A stretch of 32,000 nt of DNA from Lachnospiraceae bacterium (GTDB taxonomy: Bacteria; Bacillota; Clostridia; Lachnospirales; Lachnospiraceae), in assembly GCA_017511185.1 (NCBI GenBank), contig JAFWLF010000093.1, positions 737-32,736 on the forward strand, given 5' to 3'. The number at the start of each line of letters is the position of its first letter. The first letter of the stretch is position 1. The notes under the pieces were generated by a model. It saw only the letters and a program-made list of their open reading frames with translations. It made no database searches and had not been told where the DNA came from. Below, one piece after another: positions 10,992 to 31,017 of this stretch. The translations under genes were made by a program, and so were the position numbers.

Positions 10992-12740
10992 TTGTCTGAT
11001 GCAGTAAATATCATGCGAAGAGCGGCGTCGGTCGAGAAAGCGCCGCTTTTTGAACCCTACAGTAAAGTTATCATTCATGTCGGGTTGAGCGACTCCGGCG
11101 ACACGGAAATCACATACGAGGCCGGAAATGATTCCGGGCGCACACTGGAGATCAACAACGAATGGGGCACCCAGATGATGGCAGATACCATTCTGGCAAA
11201 AATCAGGGGATATCAGTATCAGCCTCTTTTTGCAAGCGGCGCGCTGGTAGATCCTTCGGTTGAACTGGGCGATGGAATTACCGTCAACGGGATTTATTCC
11301 GGGATCTTCGTGCAGGCAACTACTTTCAACAGCCAGATGGCTTCTGATGTATCAGCTCCTGTCGATGAGGAAATTGAGCACGAATATGGTTTCGAAAGCA
11401 AGACCGACCGCGCATACACCAGGATGGTCGCTCAGACACGTTCCGGAATCAGCCTGAGCGCAGAAGAAATAGCGGCAGAGGTTGCAAGAGCGACAGACGC
11501 TGAGGGTGAACTGAGCGGCAGAATAACAGTAAATGCTGAAAATATTACTGCAGAGGTCACAAGAGCAACAGGTGCTGAAAGTACGTTGAGCGGCCGGATA
11601 ACAGTAAATGCTGAAAATATTACTGCAGAGGTCACAAGAGCAACAGGTGCTGAAAGTACGTTGAGCGGCCGGATAACAGTAAATGCCGAAAATATCACCG
11701 CAGAGGTCACAAGAGCGACAGACGCCGAGGGAACGCTTAGAAGTTCAATCTCACAAAATGCCGATGATATCACCGCAGAAGTCTCCAGAGCAACGAATGC
11801 TGAAGGAACAAAATTAAATCATACTTATTCCAGTTCTTCTTTCGGCTGGCAGCTGACATCTACAGCGTTTATATTAAAGGCAAACAACAAACAGGTATTC
11901 AAAGCAGATAAAAACGGTATAACAGTCACCGGAAGCGGAGAGTTTTCTGGCAAAATCACTGCAACAAGCGGATATATTGGAAACGGCTCAAGCGGATTTA
12001 CAATTTCAAATACGGCAATCTATAACGGAATGCAATCCCTTAGAGATACATCTAATAATGGTGTATATGTTGGGACTGATGGTATTGCCATCGGAAAAGG
12101 TGCTTTTAAAGTAACTTATACCGGCGCAGTTACAGCAACAAATCTGTCAATCACAGGCGGATCCATAGAAATCGGAAATAATTTTTCTGTAGATTTATAC
12201 GGAAATCTTAGCGCTAATAATGCTACGTTTAAAGGAACTGTATACTTCCAAAATGGTCAGTCAATAAGCAGCCTGTCATCAGCAAACCTTTATACAGGTG
12301 CATATCAGGCGAGTTCAAACTATGGGTCCTGGAACGGGACAACGTCAACAGTTAACACGAATGGACAAAACTGGACAAATGCTTATGACTCCGCGTGCGT
12401 GGAGGGAGGATATTCTTATGATGGTGCATCATATGGATATACTTCCCATAGTATCTTTGAGCATCCGGACGGTGAAGCATACTGCACATATCTGTATACA
12501 TATTACCTCAAGGCAACAGAAGGCATTAACTTTAGTGATGCATCGTTGGCACTGGGTGATTTATATTTAAAATATGGCAATAGTAACTATCATGCTCAAT
12601 GGGTGGAAACGTCAGGAAGTATTAATTATTCCACGACATACAAAGTTGCAGATATAAATGGAAATGAGCATTGGACTGGTGAATTTTCGAATCCTCCGGT
12701 ATCCGTTTCGCCTGGGTGGGTAGTAGGATTGAGATCTTAA
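10992..12740 (+). CDS. Tail fibre / tail-associated protein with 25-aa tandem repeats
   Basis: TTG start after GAGGGGGTGG. 582 aa. The central repeat is AEVTRATGAESTLSGRITVNAENIT. The C-terminus is Gly/Ser/Thr/Asn-rich and fibre-like. Confidence 0.7.
   Translation: MSDAVNIMRRAASVEKAPLFEPYSKVIIHVGLSDSGDTEITYEAGNDSGRTLEINNEWGTQMMADTILAKIRGYQYQPLFASGALVDPSVELGDGITVNGIYSGIFVQATTFNSQMASDVSAPVDEEIEHEYGFESKTDRAYTRMVAQTRSGISLSAEEIAAEVARATDAEGELSGRITVNAENITAEVTRATGAESTLSGRITVNAENITAEVTRATGAESTLSGRITVNAENITAEVTRATDAEGTLRSSISQNADDITAEVSRATNAEGTKLNHTYSSSSFGWQLTSTAFILKANNKQVFKADKNGITVTGSGEFSGKITATSGYIGNGSSGFTISNTAIYNGMQSLRDTSNNGVYVGTDGIAIGKGAFKVTYTGAVTATNLSITGGSIEIGNNFSVDLYGNLSANNATFKGTVYFQNGQSISSLSSANLYTGAYQASSNYGSWNGTTSTVNTNGQNWTNAYDSACVEGGYSYDGASYGYTSHSIFEHPDGEAYCTYLYTYYLKATEGINFSDASLALGDLYLKYGNSNYHAQWVETSGSINYSTTYKVADINGNEHWTGEFSNPPVSVSPGWVVGLRS
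11475..11807 (+). repeat. About 4.4 in-frame tandem copies of a 75-bp (25-aa) unit
   Basis: Units begin at 11475, 11550, 11625, 11700 and 11775 (partial). Units 2 and 3 encode identical peptides and differ at three synonymous positions. Confidence 0.9.
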
Positions 12741-15621: not shown

Positions 15622-15908
15622 GTAATTTAAAGTAACCATTTAACGCACAATCCTATCTCGTGATTATCTCGTGATTTTCACATGATTTTCACGAGATAGA
15701 ATTTAACTTGCTTGTAACTTGCAAGCAACTTGCAACCGACATCAATGTCGGTCACAAAGAAGGTGATGCGGAATGTTCCACGACAATTGCGTTGCTGAAA
15801 TTGGTGGAAGCCCGTATATGTAGCAAACGGCACTGCCGCCCGAAGTCCTGCGTGCCACGCAGGGGGATTGTAGGACGGCACTGCCGATTTTTTAAGAGGA
15901 GGTGACTA
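15622..15908 (+). promoter_or_regulatory. Repeat-rich and hairpin-rich non-coding region upstream of the lysis cassette
   Basis: TATCTCGTGA at 15654 and 15665, with the inverted copy TCACGAGATA at 15689. AACTTGC occurs three times at an 11-nt period (15705, 15716, 15727). Hairpins at 15735-15752 and 15847-15863. ACGGCACTGCCG at 15827 and 15875, the second followed by TTTTTT. Confidence 0.6.
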
Positions 15909-16964: not shown

Positions 16965-17174
16965 ATGAAACTGCCAAACAGAGTATATGACGTTTTGAAA
17001 TGGGTGGTTATGATATGCCTGCCAGCGATCACGACGGCATACGTTGGCCTGGCGGCAATCTGGGGTTGGCCGTATGCTACGGAAGTGGCAAAAACCAGCG
17101 CAGTCGTGTGCACGCTCCTGGGCGCTTTGCTGGGGATCAGCACGGCGGAATATAACAAAGATAATTACCAATAA
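16965..17174 (+). CDS. Holin (phi LC3 / Dp-1 holin family)
   Basis: MKLPNRVYDVLKWVVMICLPAITTAY...LLGALLGIS is the typical pattern of this holin family. 69 aa with 2 TM helices. Confidence 0.75.
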   Translation: MKLPNRVYDVLKWVVMICLPAITTAYVGLAAIWGWPYATEVAKTSAVVCTLLGALLGISTAEYNKDNYQ

Positions 17175-17180
17175 AAAGAG

Positions 17181-17205
17181 CCCTCTGTGGAAAAAAACAG
17201 AGGGC
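17181..17205. terminator. GC-rich hairpin terminator between the convergent lysis and integrase genes
   Basis: CCCTCTGT / ACAGAGGG stem with a GGAAAAAAA loop. A T-run follows on the minus strand (CTCTTTTT). The plus-strand T-tract is poor. Confidence 0.6.
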
Positions 17206-17214
17206 AAATGATCA

Positions 17215-17246
17215 TATTTTACATTTCCGGATGGTAATGTAAAATA
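17215..17246. other. Candidate attP core: perfect 11-bp inverted repeat around a 10-bp spacer
   Basis: TATTTTACATT-tccggatggt-AATGTAAAATA. It lies 3 nt beyond the integrase stop codon, inside the only non-coding gap between the lysis and integrase genes. Confidence 0.4.
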
Positions 17247-17249
17247 AGA

Positions 17250-18530
17250 TTAATTCAAAATCAAAAAAATTTCACCGTCTATAGAGATCTCAATCCGCTT
17301 CAGGATGCGGCTCCAGAAAGCCTTCTTCGCGTCTCTCGACAATCCCGTATACATCGCAAGGGAACCGGCAAGCTCCTCGATGTTGAGCGGGGTGCGGAGC
17401 GGGACGATGTCCGCCTCTGCAAGCTGCTCTTCCAGCGCTTTGTAATCTCTCTCATAGATTGCCCTGTCGATCAGGTCATCCAGATAAAGATCCTTCAGCT
17501 TCTCCATTTTGCGGCGGATCTTGTCCGGGTCCTTTTTCGGCGGGGCTTTTTTGTATATCTCGGCATTATATGCTTCCGCTGTATCGACCAGATGCTCCAG
17601 CAGAAAACTTTCGATCACATCCTCCCGGTTGTGCTTTTTCGCCTGGCATTTCATTTCCCCGTAATCGGAGCGGTTTGCACAGTAATAATAATTCGTGTTA
17701 TCCGGCCGGCTGGCCTTCATCCGCCTGCCGCATTCCCGGCAGTAAACCATGCCGCCGAAGAGATACACGATGCCGGTGCTCTTGTGCCTGACGGAGCGGG
17801 AATTGAGAATCTCCTGCGCTCTCCGGAAGGTCTCCTGGTCGATGATCCCCTCGTGCCATTCGCCGCCGAGATAACGCCTGTTCTGCAGCATCCGTTTCGT
17901 CGGCGTATAGGAATGGACGATCCCGTAGGTGTCGGCCATATAATCCCGGACTTTGAAGACGGATCGCAGCTCGATCAGCCTGCGGAACATATCCTGCACA
18001 ATCGGCGCCGTCTCCGGATCCGGCACCATGCGCTTGTCTGCGATCCTGTATCCGAGCGGGACCTTGCCGCTGCACAGTTCTCCTTTTGCCCGTTTCGCCT
18101 CGAAAACGAACCGGATCCTCTCACCGGTCCTCTCTGCCTCGTTCTGGGCAACGCTCAGCATGATGTTCACCTTGAAGCGCCCGCCGGCCGTGACCGTCTC
18201 GTAATCCTCCTGCGTGGCGATCCACGCGACACCGTGCGCGTCCAGAAGGTCCTGCACCTGATAGAACAGCTTCACCGACCGGAACCAGCGGTCAAGCCTG
18301 ATAAACAGGATCACGTCCACCCGGTCAAGCGCCTGCATGAGCTCTGTCATGGCAGGTCTTTTTTTATATCCCTTCTGCCCGGATATGCCCTCATCCAGGT
18401 ATTCGCCGACGATGACATATCCCTGCTCTTTCGCATACCGGCGCAGCGCCTCCAGCTGCGCACCGATGCTGTATCCGTGCCGCGCCTGCTCTTCCGTGCT
18501 GACGCGGCAATACAATGCTGCCCGTTTCAT
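17250..18530 (-). CDS. int: Large serine recombinase (phage integrase)
   Basis: N-terminal resolvase domain with YCRVSTEEQ, a recombinase domain, a Cys-rich zinc ribbon (CRECGRRM...YYCANR) and a C-terminal coiled coil. The ATG at 18530 follows GGAGG. Confidence 0.9.
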   Translation of the reverse strand: MKRAALYCRVSTEEQARHGYSIGAQLEALRRYAKEQGYVIVGEYLDEGISGQKGYKKRPAMTELMQALDRVDVILFIRLDRWFRSVKLFYQVQDLLDAHGVAWIATQEDYETVTAGGRFKVNIMLSVAQNEAERTGERIRFVFEAKRAKGELCSGKVPLGYRIADKRMVPDPETAPIVQDMFRRLIELRSVFKVRDYMADTYGIVHSYTPTKRMLQNRRYLGGEWHEGIIDQETFRRAQEILNSRSVRHKSTGIVYLFGGMVYCRECGRRMKASRPDNTNYYYCANRSDYGEMKCQAKKHNREDVIESFLLEHLVDTAEAYNAEIYKKAPPKKDPDKIRRKMEKLKDLYLDDLIDRAIYERDYKALEEQLAEADIVPLRTPLNIEELAGSLAMYTGLSRDAKKAFWSRILKRIEISIDGEIFLILN

Positions 18531-18595
18531 GATAACCTCCTTTTTTCCCAGCCACAAAGCGGGGGATTTTTATGCCCGTCTGTGAGAGAGAATTG

Positions 18596-19081
18596 TTATC
18601 TGCTTGGATCGTAGCGTGAGCAGGCTCGCTCAAGCTTTTTGAAATCACAGCAGATTTTCAAAAGAAACTTGTTTTTCTTGTTTACAACCTGAAAATATGT
18701 TTTTGAAGCATGCTCAAGGACATCGCCCTTATGCCTGTTAATAAATGACGCCTGACGCCTAAGTAGATCGGCGTACTGCGGATCTGGTTCTGCATTGATA
18801 TCAAAGCTTATCAGCGCGGAGTCCGGCACAGGAAGCATGTTGTTGAAACCGAGTAAACCAAGGGCACCGTTATCCAGCTTCATAATATGATGCCCGGCTT
18901 TAATGTTGATGTGATTTGGTTTCGGAGATTCCATCGGAACAAAGTATCGATAATCACCGACGAGAAGGACAACACCGACATATGGCCTGCGTCGGCCTTT
19001 GTTGTCCTGGACGCGTGGATCCTTAGTCCTTAGATAGCGGACGTAATGGTCGCTTAATCTGTAAATCTTTAATGATTCCAT
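18596..19081 (-). CDS. toxN: ToxN/AbiQ-family endoribonuclease toxin (type III toxin-antitoxin / abortive infection)
   Basis: MESLKIYRLSDHYVRYLRTKDPRV..RRPYVGVVLLVGDYRYFVPMESPKP.H...LGLLGFNNMLPVP...DINAE...YADLLRRQASFI follows the ToxN/AbiQ pattern. Tandem repeats and a terminator lie immediately upstream. GC looks lower than in neighbouring genes. Confidence 0.8.
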   Translation of the reverse strand: MESLKIYRLSDHYVRYLRTKDPRVQDNKGRRRPYVGVVLLVGDYRYFVPMESPKPNHINIKAGHHIMKLDNGALGLLGFNNMLPVPDSALISFDINAEPDPQYADLLRRQASFINRHKGDVLEHASKTYFQVVNKKNKFLLKICCDFKKLERACSRYDPSR

Positions 19082-19095
19082 CTTATCCCTTTCAC

Positions 19096-19131
19096 AAATA
19101 AAAGCAGGACAGACCATAAAGTCTATCCTGC
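19096..19131 (-). terminator. Intrinsic terminator between the repeat array and toxN
   Basis: On the minus-strand RNA this is an 11-bp stem (GCAGGAUAGAC / GUCUGUCCUGC, one G-U pair), a 6-nt loop, then UUUUAUUU. On the plus strand the same position is a C-A mismatch. Confidence 0.7.
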
Positions 19132-19238
19132 CTTTTTAAGCCCCTACTTACGGCAAGGGGTATCCGCTTTTTCAAGTCCCACCTTACGGCGTGGGCTTTC
19201 CGCTTTTTCAAGTCCCGTCTTACGGCGCGGGCTAACCG
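19132..19238 (-). ncRNA. toxI: ToxI-like antitoxin RNA array: three tandem repeats of 36, 36 and 35 nt
   Basis: Repeat boundaries are 19203-19238, 19167-19202 and 19132-19166. The minus-sense consensus is CGG..A..CCC..GCCGUAAG..GGG.CUU.AAAAAG. There are no spacers. The array sits directly upstream of toxN on the same strand. Confidence 0.7.
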
Positions 19239-19309
19239 CTTGGGGGGGTGGTGAATAACAACACAAGGCGAGTTATTAATTCACACTTGCAGATTACTCT
19301 GCGCAGGAT

Positions 19310-19338
19310 ATTGTATATGAAATTGTGTTTTTTTGCAA
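19310..19338 (-). promoter_or_regulatory. Sigma-70-type promoter for the repeat array and toxN
   Basis: On the minus strand: TTGCAA (19338-19333), a 17-nt spacer, then TACAAT (19315-19310). It lies about 65 nt upstream of the first repeat. Confidence 0.55.
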
Positions 19339-19446
19339 GACTATATGTAGAAAATATGGGATGAAGACCACCAAATAAGCATTTTCATAAGAAATTTTTA
19401 TGAATTTTTTTAGCCGCTTCGGCGGGGGATTATTTTATTTTCCGGA

Positions 19447-19851
19447 TCAGCCATTTGAAGCGGTCTGCCCTTTTTGGTACCGGCCGCCGGAGAGGAGATC
19501 CTCGGAATAGTCCAGAAGCTTTTCCTTGCCTTCCTGATTCAGATCCCGGTAGTTCCGGATCAGCGTCTGCTCGTTGTATGTGAGTTCCCATTCGCCGGTG
19601 GGGGATTTAAAACCAGCCGATGAATTGGAGGAAGGATTATCAGTATTCCCTATTATCCAGTTGGGATCGACTTGGAGAACACGAGCGATAGACTCAATAA
19701 CAGGTAGTTTTACCCTTTTGATAGTGCCTTTTTCATATCGTTGTACAGTAGATTTTGCAACTCCTATAGCAACTGCGACTTCATCCAGAGTTAAGCCTCT
19801 TTGATCTCTTGCACTGCTTATACGGCAACCTATATCATAATTTGAAAACAT
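19447..19851 (-). CDS. CI-like repressor (XRE-family HTH)
   Basis: The HTH is LTLDEVAVAIGVAKSTVQRYEKG. The ATG at 19851 follows GGAGGTG. It is divergent from a cro-like gene. Confidence 0.85.
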   Translation of the reverse strand: MFSNYDIGCRISSARDQRGLTLDEVAVAIGVAKSTVQRYEKGTIKRVKLPVIESIARVLQVDPNWIIGNTDNPSSNSSAGFKSPTGEWELTYNEQTLIRNYRDLNQEGKEKLLDYSEDLLSGGRYQKGQTASNG

Positions 19852-19872
19852 TATAATCACCTCCGCAGCGCT

Positions 19873-19984
19873 ATAATAACACATAAATTTGCACAGCGCA
19901 ATATTTTTATAATAAAAAATTGCACTGCGCTATTGACAATGGTCGGCGAGTGTGTTATCTTAAAGTAAAAGTTGCATAGCGCAA
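19873..19984. promoter_or_regulatory. Divergent promoter/operator switch region
   Basis: Rightward promoter: TTGACA (19933-19938), 17 nt, TGT-TATCTT (19956-19961). Leftward promoter: TTGCGC (19901-19896), 17 nt, TATTAT (19878-19873). Operator-like TTGCA-N3-CGCAA sites are at 19889-19901, 19920-19932 and 19972-19984. Confidence 0.65.
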
Positions 19985-20004
19985 CTACGAAAGGAGGGCA
20001 GAGG

Positions 20005-20220
20005 ATGCCAAACGTACAGCTTATAAAGGAACAGATGAAAGAAAAAGGCGTCACGCAAAAAGACCTTGCAGAGGCAATTGGGATTGCAGCTCCGACAGTT
20101 TCTCAGAAACTTAACGGGGTTCGACCACTTGATCTTGCAGAAGCAAGAATCATAGCTGATAAGCTTGGAATTGACGCTGGAGATTTCGGAAAATTCTTTT
20201 TTTCGTCGGATGTTGCGTAG
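20005..20220 (+). CDS. Cro-like / XRE-family HTH regulator
   Basis: The ATG at 20005 follows AAAGGAGGG. The HTH is VTQKDLAEAIGIAAPTVSQKLNG. The TTG start at 19972 in the track is rejected because it lies inside an operator and has no RBS. Confidence 0.85.
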   Translation: MPNVQLIKEQMKEKGVTQKDLAEAIGIAAPTVSQKLNGVRPLDLAEARIIADKLGIDAGDFGKFFFSSDVA

Positions 20221-20228
20221 CGCAACAA

Positions 20229-20279
20229 ATCTGTGGTATTTCTACCACAGATACCATGATTTGCCGTTGACAAATCATG
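20229..20279 (+). promoter_or_regulatory. Two adjacent perfect hairpins downstream of cro
   Basis: ATCTGTGGTA-tttc-TACCACAGAT (20229-20252) and CATGATTTG-ccgttga-CAAATCATG (20255-20279). Neither has a T-run. Confidence 0.5.
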
Positions 20280-20309
20280 ATGAAGCTTTGAGCGGGAGGA
20301 GGTGAACCA

Positions 20310-20519
20310 ATGGACCTGAAAGAGGAAATAAAAAAGCGACTGTCACAATACGAATTGGAGATGACAGAGGCTGAAAATCGTGAAGACTGGGAAGAGGCGG
20401 AAATGATCAGACGTGAGGTACAGGGTTATCGGCTCGGCCTCTCAATAGCAATCAACACCAAACTGATCAGGAGAGCGTTCAGCGGCACGATGTTTGACGC
20501 CCTGTATGAGGATCAGTAA
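20310..20519 (+). CDS. Hypothetical small acidic protein
   Basis: GGGAGGAGGTG RBS, 69 aa. Confidence 0.55.
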   Translation: MDLKEEIKKRLSQYELEMTEAENREDWEEAEMIRREVQGYRLGLSIAINTKLIRRAFSGTMFDALYEDQ

Positions 20520-28919: not shown

Positions 28920-29118
28920 TGCTGATCTTCTGATCGAAATGCTGAAAAATGCAAAAGAAGCACAGAAACAGGAAAAGGAGGACCAGATCGAGCGGGCTGC
29001 TCTGGATGTGATATACGATTTTGCAATTGAGGCCGTTGAGGAAGTAGCGGAGTTAATAGAGGAAGGAAGCAAAAGAAATGGCCATGATAGACAAGCAGAT
29101 CCTTGTGAAGGAAGTTGA
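28906..29118 (+). CDS. Hypothetical acidic helical protein; overlaps the recombinase start by 41 nt
   Basis: Internal ATG at 28906 of the track ORF 28819-29118. Confidence 0.35.
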   Translation: MRMIDADLLIEMLKNAKEAQKQEKEDQIERAALDVIYDFAIEAVEEVAELIEEGSKRNGHDRQADPCEGS

Positions 29119-30064
29119 AAAAGCATTATATGACAAGCTGACTGCGAAGGATATCAACACCGTAGCAACGGCACTGATGAACCGGCTGGCGGTATATGAA
29201 CTGAAACGGACGGAGGAATCCGAAACAGCCGGGGATTCAGAAGAACTGTTGAGCGGGTTCCTGGACGCGAAGCGGCTCTCCGGCTGCTCGGAAAAAACGC
29301 TGACCAGATATCGGTACGTCATCGGAAGAATGCTGGAGAGCGTAAAGGTGCCGATTCGTGAGATCACTGTGTACCACCTGCGCGGTTATCTGATGGATGA
29401 GAAAAAGCGCGGCATAAAAGACAGCACGCTGAACGGGAACAGGCAGGTATACAATTCCATGTTCAGCTGGCTGAAGCGGGAGGGAATGATCCCGATAAAT
29501 CCATGCGCGAACCTGGAAACGATTCGGAAAAAGAGGGAGATGAGGAAACCGTTCTCTGACGTGGAGATTGAAAGACTGAAGGAAGCCTGCACAAGCCTTC
29601 GGGATAAGGCTATCATAACCTTCCTGCTTTCAACGGGCTGCCGGATCAGTGAGGCGTGCGAACTGAACGTGGAAGATATCGACCTGCAGAACATGGAATG
29701 CACCGTGCTCGGGAAAGGAAATAAGGAAAGAAAGGTATACATGAACCCGGTGGCGGAGCTCCATCTGGAAGACTATCTGGACGAGCGGGGGAAAAAGGAA
29801 GGGCCTCTTTTCGCAGGAAAGGGATCCGAGAGGCTTCAGCCGGGAGGCGTCCGCACAATGCTTAAAAAAGTGGCTGAGCGGGCTGGTGTGGAAAACGTGC
29901 ACCCGCACCGTTTCCGGAGGACGCTGGCGACCAATCTGATCAAGCGCGGAATGACGATCCAGGAAGTGGCCAGGGTGCTCGGCCATGAGAAGATCGACAC
30001 GACAATGCGGTATATCTATCTCGATGACAGGGATGTAAAGAACAACCATATGAAATACGCCTGA
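29078..30064 (+). CDS. Tyrosine recombinase (XerC/XerD-like, phage integrase family)
   Basis: The C-terminal catalytic pattern is present: ...TGCRISEA..., HPHRFRRTLAT, LGHEKIDTTMRYIY. There is an N-terminal SAM-like core-binding domain. Confidence 0.85.
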   Translation: MAMIDKQILVKEVEKALYDKLTAKDINTVATALMNRLAVYELKRTEESETAGDSEELLSGFLDAKRLSGCSEKTLTRYRYVIGRMLESVKVPIREITVYHLRGYLMDEKKRGIKDSTLNGNRQVYNSMFSWLKREGMIPINPCANLETIRKKREMRKPFSDVEIERLKEACTSLRDKAIITFLLSTGCRISEACELNVEDIDLQNMECTVLGKGNKERKVYMNPVAELHLEDYLDERGKKEGPLFAGKGSERLQPGGVRTMLKKVAERAGVENVHPHRFRRTLATNLIKRGMTIQEVARVLGHEKIDTTMRYIYLDDRDVKNNHMKYA

Positions 30065-30146
30065 GACTTTGAGCCTGCTGCACCGGAAGGCCGATGCAGC
30101 TGCCTGAGAGCCTTAAGCACCTTGAAAACTGAAAGATCTTCTTTAT

Positions 30147-30174
30147 ATAGGTACGCGCGCGCACGCGTATCTAT
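30147..30174. other. Hairpin with an alternating-CG core immediately upstream of the Rep-like gene
   Basis: ATAGGTACGCG-cgcgca-CGCGTATCTAT: an 11-bp stem with one mismatch. It sits in an AT-rich context 49 nt before the ATG at 30223. Confidence 0.5.
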
Positions 30175-30222
30175 GAGGACCTTTTAGCGGCTAACATTAG
30201 AACACACCGGGAAGGAGCGGAG

Positions 30223-31017
30223 ATGAGAAGGCTGATGGAGTACAAGATTATATCAGGGCGCGTCATAGAAACAAAGCGAAGCTGGTTTTCTATGAATGAA
30301 TGTTTCAAACCCAGGGGGACGCGCAGAGCAGGCAGCACAAGTGAGAAGAAGATCCGGGCGAACGAGAAAAGCAGCATCCGGAACCTCGCCAGGGTGATCA
30401 ACTGCAACTTTGACGCCGGGGACGTATTTGCGACTCTGAGCTATGACGGGGATCACTACCGGCCGGATCTGGACTATGAGCAGGCAAAGCTGCAGCTGAA
30501 GAAGTTCAGGGCAAAGCTCCGGAAGATCTATGCCAGGGAGAAAGGCAAAACTCTGAGGGCAATCTGGGTGACGGCCAACTGGAGCCCGCACAGGGATGCT
30601 CCGACGCGGCTGCACCATCACATGGTCCTTCCGGAAGATGCGACGGAGATCGCCAGGGTGATATGGCAGGAATTCGGAGGAGCCGGAACCTTCAAGATGG
30701 AAGGCCTGGACAGCCGCGGGGATCACACGGATCTCGCTTCCTACATGTCGGAGAACGTTCATGGCCGTCCTGCCGGGGAAAACAAGTGGAGCTGCTGCCG
30801 CGGGATGGATCGGCCAATCTACACGGAGCCTGTGGAAGTGGCCGACATGGAAGACATGCAGCCGGATTATGACAGCACGATCAAGGACGTCGAGGAGATC
30901 CGCGACGATGACGGCCAGCTGATCGGCAAATACATGCGCTGCCTGCTGAAAGAGAGGCCGCATGTCAGGGGCGGGCAGGTGGTGCTGCCTAAGAAACAGA
31001 CCAGGAGGCGGACATGA
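30223..31017 (+). CDS. Putative HUH-type (rolling-circle Rep-like) replication initiator; tentative
   Basis: Three motifs occur in Rep order and spacing: FATLSY (motif 1), RLHHHMVLP (HxH, motif 2), DLASYMSEN (Tyr, motif 3, lacking the usual Lys). RBS is GGAAGGAG. Confidence 0.4.
   Translation: MRRLMEYKIISGRVIETKRSWFSMNECFKPRGTRRAGSTSEKKIRANEKSSIRNLARVINCNFDAGDVFATLSYDGDHYRPDLDYEQAKLQLKKFRAKLRKIYAREKGKTLRAIWVTANWSPHRDAPTRLHHHMVLPEDATEIARVIWQEFGGAGTFKMEGLDSRGDHTDLASYMSENVHGRPAGENKWSCCRGMDRPIYTEPVEVADMEDMQPDYDSTIKDVEEIRDDDGQLIGKYMRCLLKERPHVRGGQVVLPKKQTRRRT

What the first reader, a model, noticed from the sequence alone, without database searches (positions are those of the whole stretch)
18596..19338. 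Complete type III toxin-antitoxin (ToxIN/AbiQ-like) cassette inside the lysogeny module
All parts of the type III TA layout appear in order on the minus strand.
- Promoter: TTGCAA, 17 nt, TACAAT (19338-19310).
- Three head-to-tail 36/36/35-nt repeats with no spacers (19238-19132).
- Intrinsic terminator: 11-bp stem plus UUUUAUUU (19131-19096).
- An RBS, then a 161-aa ORF whose motifs follow ToxN/AbiQ endoribonucleases.

The repeat length matches the 36-nt ToxI unit of Pectobacterium ToxIN. A terminator between the repeats and the toxin is the known device that sets the antitoxin:toxin ratio.

The cassette sits between the CI-like repressor and the serine integrase, so it should be expressed from the prophage. 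It looks AT-richer by eye than both neighbours, which suggests a moron-type acquisition. No terminator is visible in the 65 nt between toxN and int, so the two may be co-transcribed.

A phage-borne abortive-infection TA of this type, with this repeat family, may not be described.
Basis: partly seen in the sequence, partly recalled or inferred. Interest (0 to 1): 0.8.

Follow-up and report, generated by a model that had tools for sequence, protein, structure and literature searches.

The report
Phage-borne ToxIN RNA-antitoxin toxin cassette
A temperate gut-bacterial phage carries a complete, ordinary-looking ToxIN-type toxin/RNA-antitoxin module next to its integrase and repressor genes; it is a new member of a well-known family, and phages turn out to carry this clade often.

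Summary
On the minus strand there is a promoter (19338-19310), three tandem 36/36/35-nt units (19240-19134), a strong terminator (19131-19096), an RBS and a 161-aa ORF (19081-18596). The ORF is a full-length ToxN/AbiQ endoribonuclease (Pfam PF13958, E 6e-48). The closest solved structure is B. thuringiensis ToxN.

Across 94 distinct related units, covariation supports a hairpin plus a second helix. Together these form a compact H-type pseudoknot, as in known ToxI RNAs. Every inter-unit junction carries AAAAA, the expected ToxN processing site.

This is a ToxIN-family type III toxin-antitoxin cassette in a temperate phage of gut Clostridia.

- The cassette is not compositionally distinct. Its GC is 0.451, the same as cI and cro.
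- The repeat family is not new. It is recognisably related to Bacillus ToxI repeats.

The exact protein is already in NCBI, named as a ToxN/AbiQ toxin.

Added value from this work:
- At least 99 IMG/VR viral contigs carry the clade.
- The closer relatives sit between repressor and integrase.
- All 21 arrays checked have a conserved two-hairpin leader.
- Glu replaces the active-site Thr52 throughout the clade.

Verdict: new member of a known kind, of modest interest.

The parts
19310..19338 (-). Sigma-70-type promoter of the cassette: -35 TTGCAA (19338-19333), 17-nt spacer, -10 TACAAT (19315-19310)
   Evidence: Read and listed. A TATAAT box at the equivalent place is present in 21 related loci.
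19289..19302 (-). Leader hairpin 1: GCAGA-GUAA-UCUGC, a 5-bp stem with a GNRA-type loop, about 7 nt after the -10 box (probably the 5' end of the transcript)
   Evidence: Folds. Present in 21 of 21 loci. Compensated changes: C-G to U-A in 3 sequences, G-C to A-U in 1 (the window itself).
19248..19286 (-). Leader hairpin 2, a longer stem (GUGUGAAU...AUUCAC(C)AC), followed by a pyrimidine tract (19251-19242) that ends just before unit 1
   Evidence: Folds. An equivalent second hairpin is present in all 21 leaders. Function unknown.
19205..19240 (-). ToxI-like antitoxin unit 1 (36 nt): AGCGGUUAGCCCGCGCCGUAAGACGGGACUUGAAAA
   Evidence: 52.2 bits; this unit is part of the model's training set. There is no A5 run on its 5' side.
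19169..19204 (-). ToxI-like antitoxin unit 2 (36 nt): AGCGGAAAGCCCACGCCGUAAGGUGGGACUUGAAAA
   Evidence: 54.5 bits; training-set unit. Its stem CCCAC/GUGGG differs from unit 1 by compensated changes.
19134..19168 (-). ToxI-like antitoxin unit 3 (35 nt): AGCGGAUACCCCUUGCCGUAAGUAGGGGCUUAAAA
   Evidence: 56.6 bits; training-set unit. It most resembles unit 3 of the other loci (0.83 identity).
19096..19131 (-). Intrinsic terminator between antitoxin array and toxin: 11-bp stem, loop UUUAUG, tail UUUUAUUU
   Evidence: -24.8 kcal/mol, z -6.9. An equivalent hairpin is present in every related locus read.
18596..19081 (-). toxN: 161-aa ToxN/AbiQ-family endoribonuclease toxin (stop codon included); RBS AAGGGA at 19091-19086
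   Evidence: PF13958 E 6.4e-48 over profile positions 1-159 of 159. PADLOC AbiQ 1.7e-45. 4ATO ToxN_Bt 8.7e-25. Ser52, Lys54 and Arg32 are conserved.
17250..18530 (-). Neighbour: large serine integrase, 65 nt downstream of toxN on the same strand, with no terminator between them
   Evidence: Resolvase 4e-30, Recombinase and Zn_ribbon_recom. Spacer fold.
19447..19884 (-). Neighbour: CI-like HTH repressor upstream on the same strand; a divergent Cro-like HTH gene lies at 19972-20220 (+)
   Evidence: HTH_3 2.7e-13. PHROG transcriptional repressor and regulator families.

Best explanation
This is a ToxIN-family type III toxin-antitoxin module carried in the immunity and integration region of a temperate tailed phage of gut Clostridia. 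NCBI's name for the source is a Lachnospiraceae MAG.

Proposed mechanism, step by step:
1. A constitutive-looking promoter drives a transcript that begins with a two-hairpin leader and continues into three 36-nt ToxI-like units.
2. Most transcripts stop at the strong terminator. A minority read through into toxN, whose RBS lies only 5-10 nt past the terminator's U-tract. Antitoxin RNA is therefore made in excess over toxin.
3. ToxN, a sequence-specific endoribonuclease, cuts the precursor in the invariant AAAAA run at each unit boundary. By analogy with its closest solved relative, ToxN_Bt, the cut would be A/AAAA.
4. Each released unit folds as a compact H-type pseudoknot. This comprises a hairpin (unit positions 9-14 with 23-28) plus a helix between the 5' GCGG and CCGY in the hairpin loop. 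A-rich single-stranded tails flank it.
5. The units bind ToxN and hold it in an inactive ribonucleoprotein complex.
6. When transcription from the locus is shut off, or the RNA is degraded, the labile antitoxin is no longer replenished and free ToxN cleaves cellular and viral RNAs at A-rich sites. Triggers would be infection by another phage or loss of the prophage.

For the lysogen this means abortive-infection defence against other phages, stabilisation of the prophage, or both.

Shown here by sequence analysis: family membership of the toxin, the cassette layout, RNA-level selection on both helices, and the conserved junction. Inferred by analogy: the cleavage position, complex formation, toxicity and the biological role.
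For: Toxin:
- PF13958, E 6.4e-48, full length.
- PADLOC AbiQ, 1.7e-45.
- Solved relatives: 4ATO 8.7e-25, 4GLK 1.9e-15, 7D8O 1.2e-13, 2XD0 5.4e-12.
- Ser52 and Arg32 are invariant and Lys54 is nearly invariant across the alignment that includes ToxN_Bt. They map to Ser53, Lys33 and Lys55 of the documented active site (PMC8860590).

Layout:
- Promoter, three tandem units and terminator with z -6.9.
- The same order recurs in 18 genome and metagenome loci and in nearly all IMG/VR loci of the clade that include the upstream region (197 model hits, all just upstream of toxN on its strand).

RNA structure, on 94 distinct units:
- The four core hairpin pairs are 100% paired, with 28, 1, 21 and 58 double changes.
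- Pseudoknot pair 3:18 is C-G in 85 units, A-U in 9, and unpaired in none.
- Covariation score is 0.394, against 0.142 when shuffled (0 of 500 shuffles reach it) and at most 0.122 when the 3' partners are slid.
- More distant loci show U-A at the same pair (L122: UGGU with ACCA, beside CGGU with ACCG). The C. botulinum phage units pair CAGUG with CACUG, and CGGA with UCCG.

Processing site: all 33 inter-unit junctions read AAAAA directly before GCGG. Published cleavage sites are A/AAAA for ToxN_Bt and A/AAA for AbiQ (PMC5086642).

Phage context:
- Terminase, portal, head, tape measure, endolysin, holin, integrase, repressor and Cro-like genes.
- At least 99 IMG/VR contigs encode relatives.
- The closer relatives lie between a repressor and an integrase.
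Against: - Nothing has been tested experimentally. Toxicity, neutralisation, processing and phage defence are all inferred.
- The residue equivalent to Thr52 of ToxN_Pa and ToxN_Ec is Glu in this whole clade. Thr52Val abolishes toxicity in E. coli ToxN. AbiQ has Leu at that position and is active, so the change is not disqualifying, but the catalytic detail may differ.
- The pseudoknot helix rests on a single covarying pair plus two invariant G-C pairs. Its fourth pair (2:19) is unpaired in 13 of 94 units.
- The sequences are related, and some alignments were fitted to the hairpin model, which inflates the shuffle statistics.
- No Rfam family matches.
- The model built from this clade does not score the crystallised ToxI_Bt (5 bits).
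- Whether the role is defence or prophage addiction cannot be decided from sequence.
Confidence: 0.87

Rival explanations
1. The molecular device is the same, but its selected role is prophage addiction (post-segregational killing) rather than defence against other phages. Cells that lose the prophage, or an episomal copy of it, stop making the labile RNA and are killed or arrested by the stable ToxN. This would stabilise lysogeny.
For: - The cassette lies in the lysogeny module on the same strand as cI and int, so it is probably expressed in lysogens.
- There is no terminator before int.
- The one published phage-borne toxIN is on a plasmid prophage (PMC3401426), where addiction makes sense.
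- The window also encodes a replication initiator and a second, tyrosine recombinase. These hint at a possible episomal lifestyle.
- Plasmid stabilisation by ToxIN systems has been reported (my recollection, not checked here).
Against: - The characterised family members (ToxIN_Pa, AbiQ, E. coli ToxIN) were found, and are best documented, as abortive-infection systems (PMC5086642, PMC8860590).
- An integrated prophage is rarely lost, so addiction adds little.
- The two roles are not mutually exclusive.
Confidence: 0.3
2. The locus acts mainly as an anti-defence device. The phage carries ToxI-like repeats as decoy antitoxin, as Pectobacterium phage PhiTE does with pseudo-ToxI, to neutralise a host-encoded ToxN during its own infection. 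On this view the adjacent toxN is incidental or decaying.
For: - Phages that escape ToxIN by carrying or expanding ToxI-like repeats are known (my recollection of the PhiTE work, not checked here).
- Chromosomal copies of the same clade exist in potential hosts, for example Colidextribacter, between a Mur ligase gene and a GntR-family gene.
Against: - toxN is intact, full length and under clear purifying selection. Ser52, Arg32 and the NNM-P motif are invariant and Lys54 nearly so.
- It is always coupled to the array with the canonical terminator.
- A decoy needs only the RNA.
- The cassette sits in the lysogeny module, not among early lytic genes.
Confidence: 0.04
3. The repeats act as DNA, not as an RNA antitoxin. 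They would be iterons or operator sites bound by the repressor or integrase. The ToxN homologue would then be controlled in some other way, or be inactive because of the Thr52-to-Glu change.
For: - The array lies between cI and int, where regulatory DNA sites are common.
- Glu51 replaces a residue needed for toxicity in E. coli ToxN.
- No Rfam match.
Against: - Compensatory changes keep base pairing while the sequence changes. That is the signature of selection on RNA structure, not on a protein-binding DNA motif.
- The array is bracketed by a promoter and a terminator on the toxN strand in every locus.
- The same array accompanies toxN in chromosomal, non-phage contexts that lack cI and int.
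- Glu51 is conserved across the whole clade sampled, which argues for function rather than decay.
Confidence: 0.03

Closest known systems
ToxIN_Bt of Bacillus thuringiensis plasmid pAW63 (structure 4ATO)
   Same: - Best solved-structure match for the toxin (E 8.7e-25; 36% identity).
- Same cassette order, with about 3 units (2.9 against 3.3 copies).
- Same unit layout: 5' G-rich strand, short hairpin, loop ACCGUAG (GCCGUAAG here), A-run at the boundary.
- ToxN_Bt cuts A/AAAA (PMC5086642), which fits the invariant AAAAA junction here.
   Different: - 34-nt units there, 36-nt here.
- The RNA sequence is too diverged for the clade model to score it (5 bits).
- Active-site motif PLTS there, PMES here.
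- On a conjugative plasmid of a Bacillus species, not a phage of gut Clostridia.
- Its toxin has a C-terminal extension that is absent here.
Uncharacterised ToxIN locus on a Bacillus sp. A260 plasmid (NZ_CP046399)
   Same: - 36-nt units in 3.1 copies, with an identical GCCGUAAGU loop and the same hairpin position.
- Recognised by the clade's covariance model at 31.5 and 29.9 bits, E about 1e-4, although it was not in the training set.
- This shows the repeat family is shared with Bacillus ToxI-type antitoxins.
   Different: - Toxin only 39% identical.
- The 5' strand is UUGG rather than GCGG.
- The junction is GAUAAAU rather than AAAAA.
- Plasmid context.
AbiQ/AntiQ of Lactococcus lactis (structure 4GLK)
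   Same: - Same protein family (E 1.9e-15; PADLOC AbiQ model 1.7e-45).
- About 2.8 repeats of 35 nt (PMC5086642 and my recollection).
- Cleavage in an A-run (A/AAA).
- Like this clade, it lacks Thr at the position before the catalytic Ser (Leu in AbiQ, Glu here).
   Different: - Plasmid-borne in a dairy lactococcus.
- Much lower protein similarity.
- Different repeat sequence.
ToxIN_Pa of Pectobacterium atrosepticum pECA1039 (2XD0/2XDB/2XDD) and E. coli ToxIN (7D8O)
   Same: - Founding members of the family.
- 36-nt unit length.
- Promoter, repeats, terminator, toxin order.
- Pseudoknotted antitoxin.
- Ser53 and Lys55 are conserved.
   Different: - Distant toxin (E 5e-12 and 1e-13).
- 5.5 near-identical repeats there, against 3 non-identical, position-specific units here.
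- Cleavage at AA/AU or GAAAU.
- Gram-negative plasmid or chromosome.
- The 36-nt match is in length only.
toxIN of Clostridium botulinum plasmid-prophage D-1873 (Blower et al. 2012)
   Same: - The only phage-borne toxIN named in the type III TA papers read here (PMC3401426; PMC12283969).
- 40% identical toxin.
- 38-39-nt units with a hairpin plus a compensated 5'-strand-to-loop helix.
   Different: - A plasmid prophage of about 190 kb, not an integrating phage of about 33 kb.
- Not located in an int-cI module.
- Different repeat sequence and length.

Membership tests
[quoted passage not shown] | The toxin is a ToxN/AbiQ-fold endoribonuclease (Pfam PF13958) | tested here: met
   PF13958: E 6.4e-48, 163 bits (cut-off 25), profile positions 1-159 of 159. 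Sequence matches to 4ATO, 4GLK, 7D8O and 2XD0.
[quoted passage not shown] | A tandem array of short direct repeats (about 34-36 nt) lies immediately upstream of the toxin on the same strand | tested here: met
   3.3 copies of period 36 at 19123-19241. Three model hits and no others in the 32 kb. Conserved in all relatives examined.
[quoted passage not shown] | A Rho-independent terminator lies between the repeats and the toxin gene | tested here: met
   19131-19096: -24.8 kcal/mol, z -6.9, U-tract UUUUAUUU. An equivalent hairpin is present in the relatives.
[quoted passage not shown] | A single promoter upstream of the repeats drives both components | tested here: met
   TTGCAA-17-TACAAT. A TATAAT box is conserved in 21 loci. 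Only 14 nt separate the terminator tail from the toxN ATG, which leaves no room for a second promoter. Promoter activity itself cannot be tested here.
[quoted passage not shown] | Each antitoxin unit folds as an H-type pseudoknot with single-stranded tails | tested here: met
   At the level of secondary structure. The hairpin's four core pairs are 100% paired with many double changes. The second helix (positions 2-5 with 16-19) has pair 3:18 as C-G in 85 units, A-U in 9 and broken in none, plus two invariant G-C pairs. U-A occurs at the same pair in a distant locus. The tertiary fold and base triples cannot be tested here.
[quoted passage not shown] | An A-rich toxin recognition and cleavage site lies at unit boundaries | tested here: met
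   AAAAA directly before GCGG in 33 of 33 inter-unit junctions. Unit 3 is also followed by AAAAA. The cleavage itself is not testable here.
[quoted passage not shown] | Active-site residues Lys33, Thr52, Ser53 and Lys55 (ToxN_Pa/Ec numbering; PMC8860590) | tested here: inconclusive
   Ser52 (= Ser53) is invariant. Lys54 (= Lys55) is nearly invariant. Arg32 (= Lys33) is invariant, and the same K-to-R swap is reported in E. coli clusters 4 and 5. Thr52 is replaced by Glu51 throughout the clade; AbiQ has Leu at that position.
[quoted passage not shown] | The toxin is toxic, the cognate RNA neutralises it, and the toxin processes the RNA | not testable with these tools
   Needs expression, rescue and RNA end-mapping experiments.
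Curated RNA families in Rfam 15 (my recollection is that a ToxI entry exists; not checked) | Match to a curated covariance model | tested here: not met
   No relevant hit, even at E up to 10. The best hits are unrelated families at E 1.5-10. ToxI RNAs of different ToxIN subgroups share little sequence (PMC5086642), so this does not bear on family membership of the system.
CptIN and TenpIN families of type III TA | Toxin belongs to the CptN or TenpN protein family | tested here: not met
   Only ToxN_toxin is matched in Pfam at E <= 0.01, and only AbiQ in PADLOC. These families were considered and rejected.

The most novel reading that the evidence does not exclude
This locus represents a distinct, phage-adapted ToxIN subfamily. 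Temperate phages of gut Clostridia would be its main vehicle.

Its defining features would be:
- Glu in place of the active-site Thr52.
- Three non-identical units that are orthologous by position in the array.
- A conserved structured leader (a GNRA-capped 5' hairpin, a long second hairpin and a pyrimidine tract) that stays fused to unit 1.

The leader would add a layer of control not described for ToxIN, such as RNA stabilisation or coupling of toxin release to the prophage's transcriptional state. If so, type III systems are a common prophage-encoded superinfection-exclusion device in the gut. That contrasts with the literature's statement that almost none have been reported in phages.
Probability: 0.3. 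Interest if true: 0.5.

Novelty: new member of a known kind. Interest (0 to 1): 0.35.

Why it matters
For the window itself, this assigns a function to about 750 bases and flags an RNA gene that genome annotation pipelines do not call. NCBI names only the protein. PHROGs lists the protein's family (phrog_9764) as 'unknown function'.

More broadly:
- Type III toxin-antitoxin systems are treated in the literature as plasmid and chromosome defences against phages, with very few phage-borne examples.
- Here one clade turns up on at least 99 viral contigs.
- In the closer relatives it sits between the repressor and the integrase, beside integrases of two unrelated classes.
- This suggests it is a mobile cargo that temperate gut phages use to protect or hold on to their hosts.

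The 94-unit alignment also gives covariation evidence, independent of any crystal structure, for the pseudoknot fold of a ToxI-type RNA. It points to concrete features to test: the leader, unit 1 remaining fused to the leader, and Glu51.

None of this changes what is known about how ToxIN works.

Tried and rejected
- Rfam scan of 18400-19600 at E up to 10: only chance-level hits.
- Megablast of 17000-20400 against 50,697 phage records: no match. This phage has no close sequenced relative in that collection.
- Exact-sequence look-up of the window's own protein in the contig index: not on record.
- The single-protein scans of the three contig collections returned only 3-10 loci each. An alignment query was needed to reach 99 viral loci.
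- Automated test of complementarity between the 5' tail and the hairpin loop in distant ToxI units: invalid. The MFE fold often chose the pseudoknot helix itself, or a tail-to-tail helix, as 'the hairpin'. I replaced it with manual reading and pair counts on alignments.
- tblastn of one serine and four tyrosine integrases, plus repressor and M78 probes, against 73 viral loci: hits in only 9 of 67 loci. This was too insensitive to estimate how often an integrase is adjacent.
- Pfam on flanking ORFs of ten representative viral loci: mostly no family. Where informative, the context was different: a convergent Amidase_2 endolysin in L057 and L073, and an Mrr-type nuclease in L107. I therefore dropped the idea that the repressor-integrase slot is universal for the clade.
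- CptIN and TenpIN membership, and a DNA-iteron reading of the repeats: considered and rejected (see the membership test and the rival explanations).
- Structure prediction was not run. Sequence similarity to four solved structures made it unnecessary.
Full report
**1. What is in the sequence.** Read on the minus strand, the region holds the following, in order:
- TTGCAA, 17 nt, TACAAT at 19338-19310.
- A leader of about 70 nt.
- Three head-to-tail units, each starting AGCGG: 19240-19205, 19204-19169 and 19168-19134.
- A stem-loop with a UUUUAUUU tail at 19131-19096.
- AAGGGA, then an ATG at 19081 that opens a 161-aa ORF ending at 18596.

Tandem Repeats Finder reports period 36, 3.3 copies and 80% matches at 19123-19241. 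The repeat finder gives three copies spaced 36 and 36 nt apart. The terminator folds at -24.8 kcal/mol, against -9.0 +/- 2.3 for shuffles (z -6.9). The promoter is listed by the consensus scan. That is weak evidence on its own, but a TATAAT box recurs at the same place in all related loci. The ORF list also gives a 173-aa version. Its ATG lies in the terminator loop, most listed homologues are 161 aa, and the Pfam match starts at residue 4 of the 161-aa form.

**2. The protein.** The protein matches Pfam ToxN_toxin (PF13958) over the whole profile (E 6.4e-48, 163 bits against a cut-off of 25). It also matches the PADLOC AbiQ model (1.7e-45). Against solved structures, the order of similarity is:

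| Structure | Protein | E-value |
|---|---|---|
| 4ATO | B. thuringiensis ToxN | 8.7e-25 |
| 4GLK | AbiQ | 1.9e-15 |
| 7D8O | E. coli ToxN | 1.2e-13 |
| 2XD0 | Pectobacterium ToxN | 5.4e-12 |

The E. coli structure paper names Lys33, Thr52, Ser53 and Lys55 as the catalytic site, and shows that Lys33Ala, Thr52Val and Lys55Ala abolish toxicity (PMC8860590). In my alignment these map as follows:
- Lys33 maps to Arg32, which is invariant. The same K-to-R swap is reported in E. coli clusters 4 and 5.
- Ser53 maps to Ser52, which is invariant.
- Lys55 maps to Lys54, which is nearly invariant.
- Thr52 maps to Glu51. The motif PMESPK is fixed in every clade member sampled. ToxN_Bt has PLTS and AbiQ has PLLS.

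Glu51 is the one real departure at the protein level. It does not argue for decay, because it is conserved, and AbiQ works with Leu at that position.

**3. The RNA.** I extracted the units from 18 non-redundant genome and metagenome loci, aligned 49 distinct units and counted pairs. I then built a covariance model and ran it on 78 IMG/VR loci. It gave 197 hits, all on the toxN strand just upstream of the gene. Pooling gave 94 distinct units.

Hairpin (unit positions 9-14 with 23-28):
- Its four core pairs are paired in 100% of units.
- They carry 28, 1, 21 and 58 double changes.

Second helix (5' G2-C3-G4-G5 with C16-C17-G18-Y19 in the hairpin loop):
- Two pairs are invariant G-C.
- Pair 3:18 is C-G in 85 units, A-U in 9 and never broken.
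- Pair 2:19 is a G-U/G-C wobble pair, unpaired in 13 units.

The A-U state appears in unit 1 of several loci and in all three units of the 54%-identity clade (L107). A locus at about 40% identity has U-A at the same pair (UGGU with ACCA, next to CGGU with ACCG). The C. botulinum phage units pair CAGUG with CACUG, and CGGA with UCCG. The whole-structure covariation score is 0.394, against 0.142 for shuffles (0 of 500 reach it) and at most 0.122 for slid partners.

The two helices are arranged as S1(5'), 3 nt, S2(5'), 1 nt, S1(3'), AAR, S2(3'). That is a compact H-type pseudoknot with A-rich single-stranded tails, which is what the reviews describe for ToxI_Pa and ToxI_Bt (PMC5086642).

Caveats: the units are related, part of the alignment was fitted to the hairpin model, and the second helix rests on one covarying pair.

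**4. Processing site and array organisation.** All 33 inter-unit junctions read AAAAA directly before GCGG, and unit 3 is followed by AAAAA before the terminator. Published sites are A/AAAA for ToxN_Bt, A/AAA for AbiQ and AA/AU for ToxN_Pa. Cleavage inside the A-run is therefore the natural inference.

No locus has an A5 run 5' of unit 1. Unit 1 probably stays attached to the leader.

Units at the same array position are more alike between loci (0.76-0.80 identity) than units at different positions (0.69-0.73). None of 300 permutations reaches the observed difference. The three-unit array is therefore old, and its units have diverged in their stems by compensated changes instead of being homogenised. 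In the window itself, unit 2 is 86% identical to unit 1, which suggests some local homogenisation.

**5. The leader.** In 21 of 21 loci the transcript would start with these elements:
- A short hairpin capped by a GNRA-type loop. In the window this is GCAGA-GUAA-UCUGC at 19302-19289.
- A longer second hairpin (19286-19248 in the window).
- A pyrimidine tract. It reads CCUCCUUUC-like in many relatives and CCACCCCCCC in the window.

Hairpin 1 shows compensated changes. I found no description of such a leader in the ToxIN papers I read. Its function is unknown. A 5' stabiliser is the simplest guess.

**6. Is the repeat family new?** No.
- A Bacillus sp. A260 plasmid has 36-nt units in 3.1 copies with the same GCCGUAAGU loop. 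The clade model scores them at 30-31 bits (E about 1e-4).
- It also scores a C. difficile phage-plasmid array at 29 bits. Neither was in the training set.
- The crystallised ToxI_Bt of pAW63 has the same layout with 34-nt units, but is too diverged to score.
- The resemblance to the Pectobacterium 36-nt unit is in length only.

**7. Context.** The window is most of a tailed-phage genome. It encodes a large terminase subunit (cut by the window start), portal, major head protein, tape measure, tail protein, endolysin and holin. These are followed by a serine integrase, toxIN, a CI-like repressor, a divergent Cro-like gene and early genes. The integrase lies in the middle of the sequence, next to the lysis genes. 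That is the circular or packaged gene order, not that of an integrated prophage.

The exact protein is in NCBI as 'MAG: type III toxin-antitoxin system ToxN/AbiQ family toxin [Lachnospiraceae bacterium]' on a 32,736-nt contig. 788 homologues passed E 1e-3, and the 120 best are 69-100% identical.

Among six sampled clusters:
- Four clusters (P0031, P0050, P0064, P0115) lie between an HTH repressor and a tyrosine integrase, three of them with an M78 peptidase alongside.
- In a fifth (P0015) an M78-domain protein is upstream and the contig ends just past toxN.
- The sixth (P0011, Colidextribacter) is chromosomal.

tblastn found a serine or tyrosine integrase 156-367 nt downstream in seven of the 67 viral loci with enough downstream sequence, one further locus (L066) with less flank, and two more distant hits. 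At least 99 IMG/VR contigs encode a relative.

In the 64%-identity viral loci, however, the downstream neighbour is a convergent endolysin. In the 54% clade it is an Mrr-type nuclease. The repressor-integrase slot is therefore typical of the closer relatives, not universal.

**8. Composition.** GC values are:

| Region | GC |
|---|---|
| toxIN cassette | 0.451 |
| cI | 0.452 |
| cro | 0.450 |
| int | 0.560 |
| Whole window | 0.505 |

15% of equal-sized windows have GC as low or lower than the cassette. The cassette shares the composition of the immunity region. There is no compositional sign of recent acquisition.

**9. Literature.**
- Blower et al. 2012 catalogued 125 type III loci, many in Lachnospiraceae and other Clostridiales, with one on a C. 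botulinum plasmid prophage (PMC3401426).
- A 2025 survey states that, apart from that case, no other type III system had been reported in bacteriophages, and then reports tenpIN in viruses (PMC12283969).
- GenBank phage records already include an annotated ToxN, in Fusobacterium phage phiFN37.
- PHROGs holds the family as phrog_9764, 'unknown function'.

**10. Verdict.** The finding is real and correctly interpreted. It is a ToxIN-family type III toxin-antitoxin cassette, a new member of a known kind. The points worth keeping:
- Phages carry this clade often, and the literature under-reports this.
- The pseudoknot is supported by covariation.
- The three units are orthologous by array position.
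- The leader is conserved.
- Glu51 replaces Thr52.

Toxicity, neutralisation, processing and the biological role (defence or prophage addiction) remain inferences by analogy.

Noticed in passing
window 17180-17245: A bidirectional terminator (17180-17205) is followed by an imperfect palindrome, ATTTTACATT-TCCGGATGG-TAATGTAAAAT (17216-17245), directly after the stop of the serine integrase. This is a candidate attP core.
   Followed up: no
window 29078-31017: A second recombinase, tyrosine-integrase-like (phrog_1, 1.9e-60), lies in the early region next to a replication-initiation protein (phrog_3584, 2.8e-40). The phage therefore has both a serine integrase and a tyrosine recombinase, which may hint at an episomal or dimer-resolution function.
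   Followed up: no
window 19242-19302, and the leaders of L001-L036: Between the toxI promoter and unit 1 there is a conserved leader in 21 of 21 loci. It has a GNRA-capped hairpin, a longer second hairpin and a pyrimidine tract. In relatives the tract reads CCUCCUUUC, like the 3' end of 16S rRNA. Function unknown.
   Followed up: partly
window 18596-19081 (protein): PHROGs family phrog_9764 matches the toxin over its full length (6.4e-40) but is labelled 'unknown function'. ToxN homologues in catalogued phage genomes therefore go unnamed by PHROG-based annotation.
   Followed up: no
window 11512-11794: A 75-nt tandem repeat (2.8 copies, 95% matches; also read as 150 nt in 1.9 copies) lies inside the 582-aa ORF 10992-12740. 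This is presumably a repeated domain in a tail or fibre protein.
   Followed up: no
window 15654-15735: Three adjacent short tandem arrays of period 11 lie in the AT-rich spacer (GC about 0.39-0.43) between the tail gene and the endolysin gene.
   Followed up: no
window 19169-19240: The window's unit 2 is 86% identical to its unit 1. It resembles unit 1 of the other loci more than their unit 2, which suggests local homogenisation within this array.
   Followed up: partly
L107 4030-5802; L057 4313-5032; L073 4305-5015: In more distant viral relatives the cassette has other neighbours: an Mrr_cat plus SWIM nuclease (L107), or a convergent Amidase_2 endolysin (L057, L073). The insertion site varies within the clade.
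   Followed up: partly
L120 1-250 (IMG/VR contig); L041 (C. difficile phage pCD1602_4): C. difficile-type phage-plasmid arrays alternate two different unit types (A-B-A in L041; at least five units, A-B-A-B-A, in L120). The array length therefore varies between otherwise similar loci.
   Followed up: no
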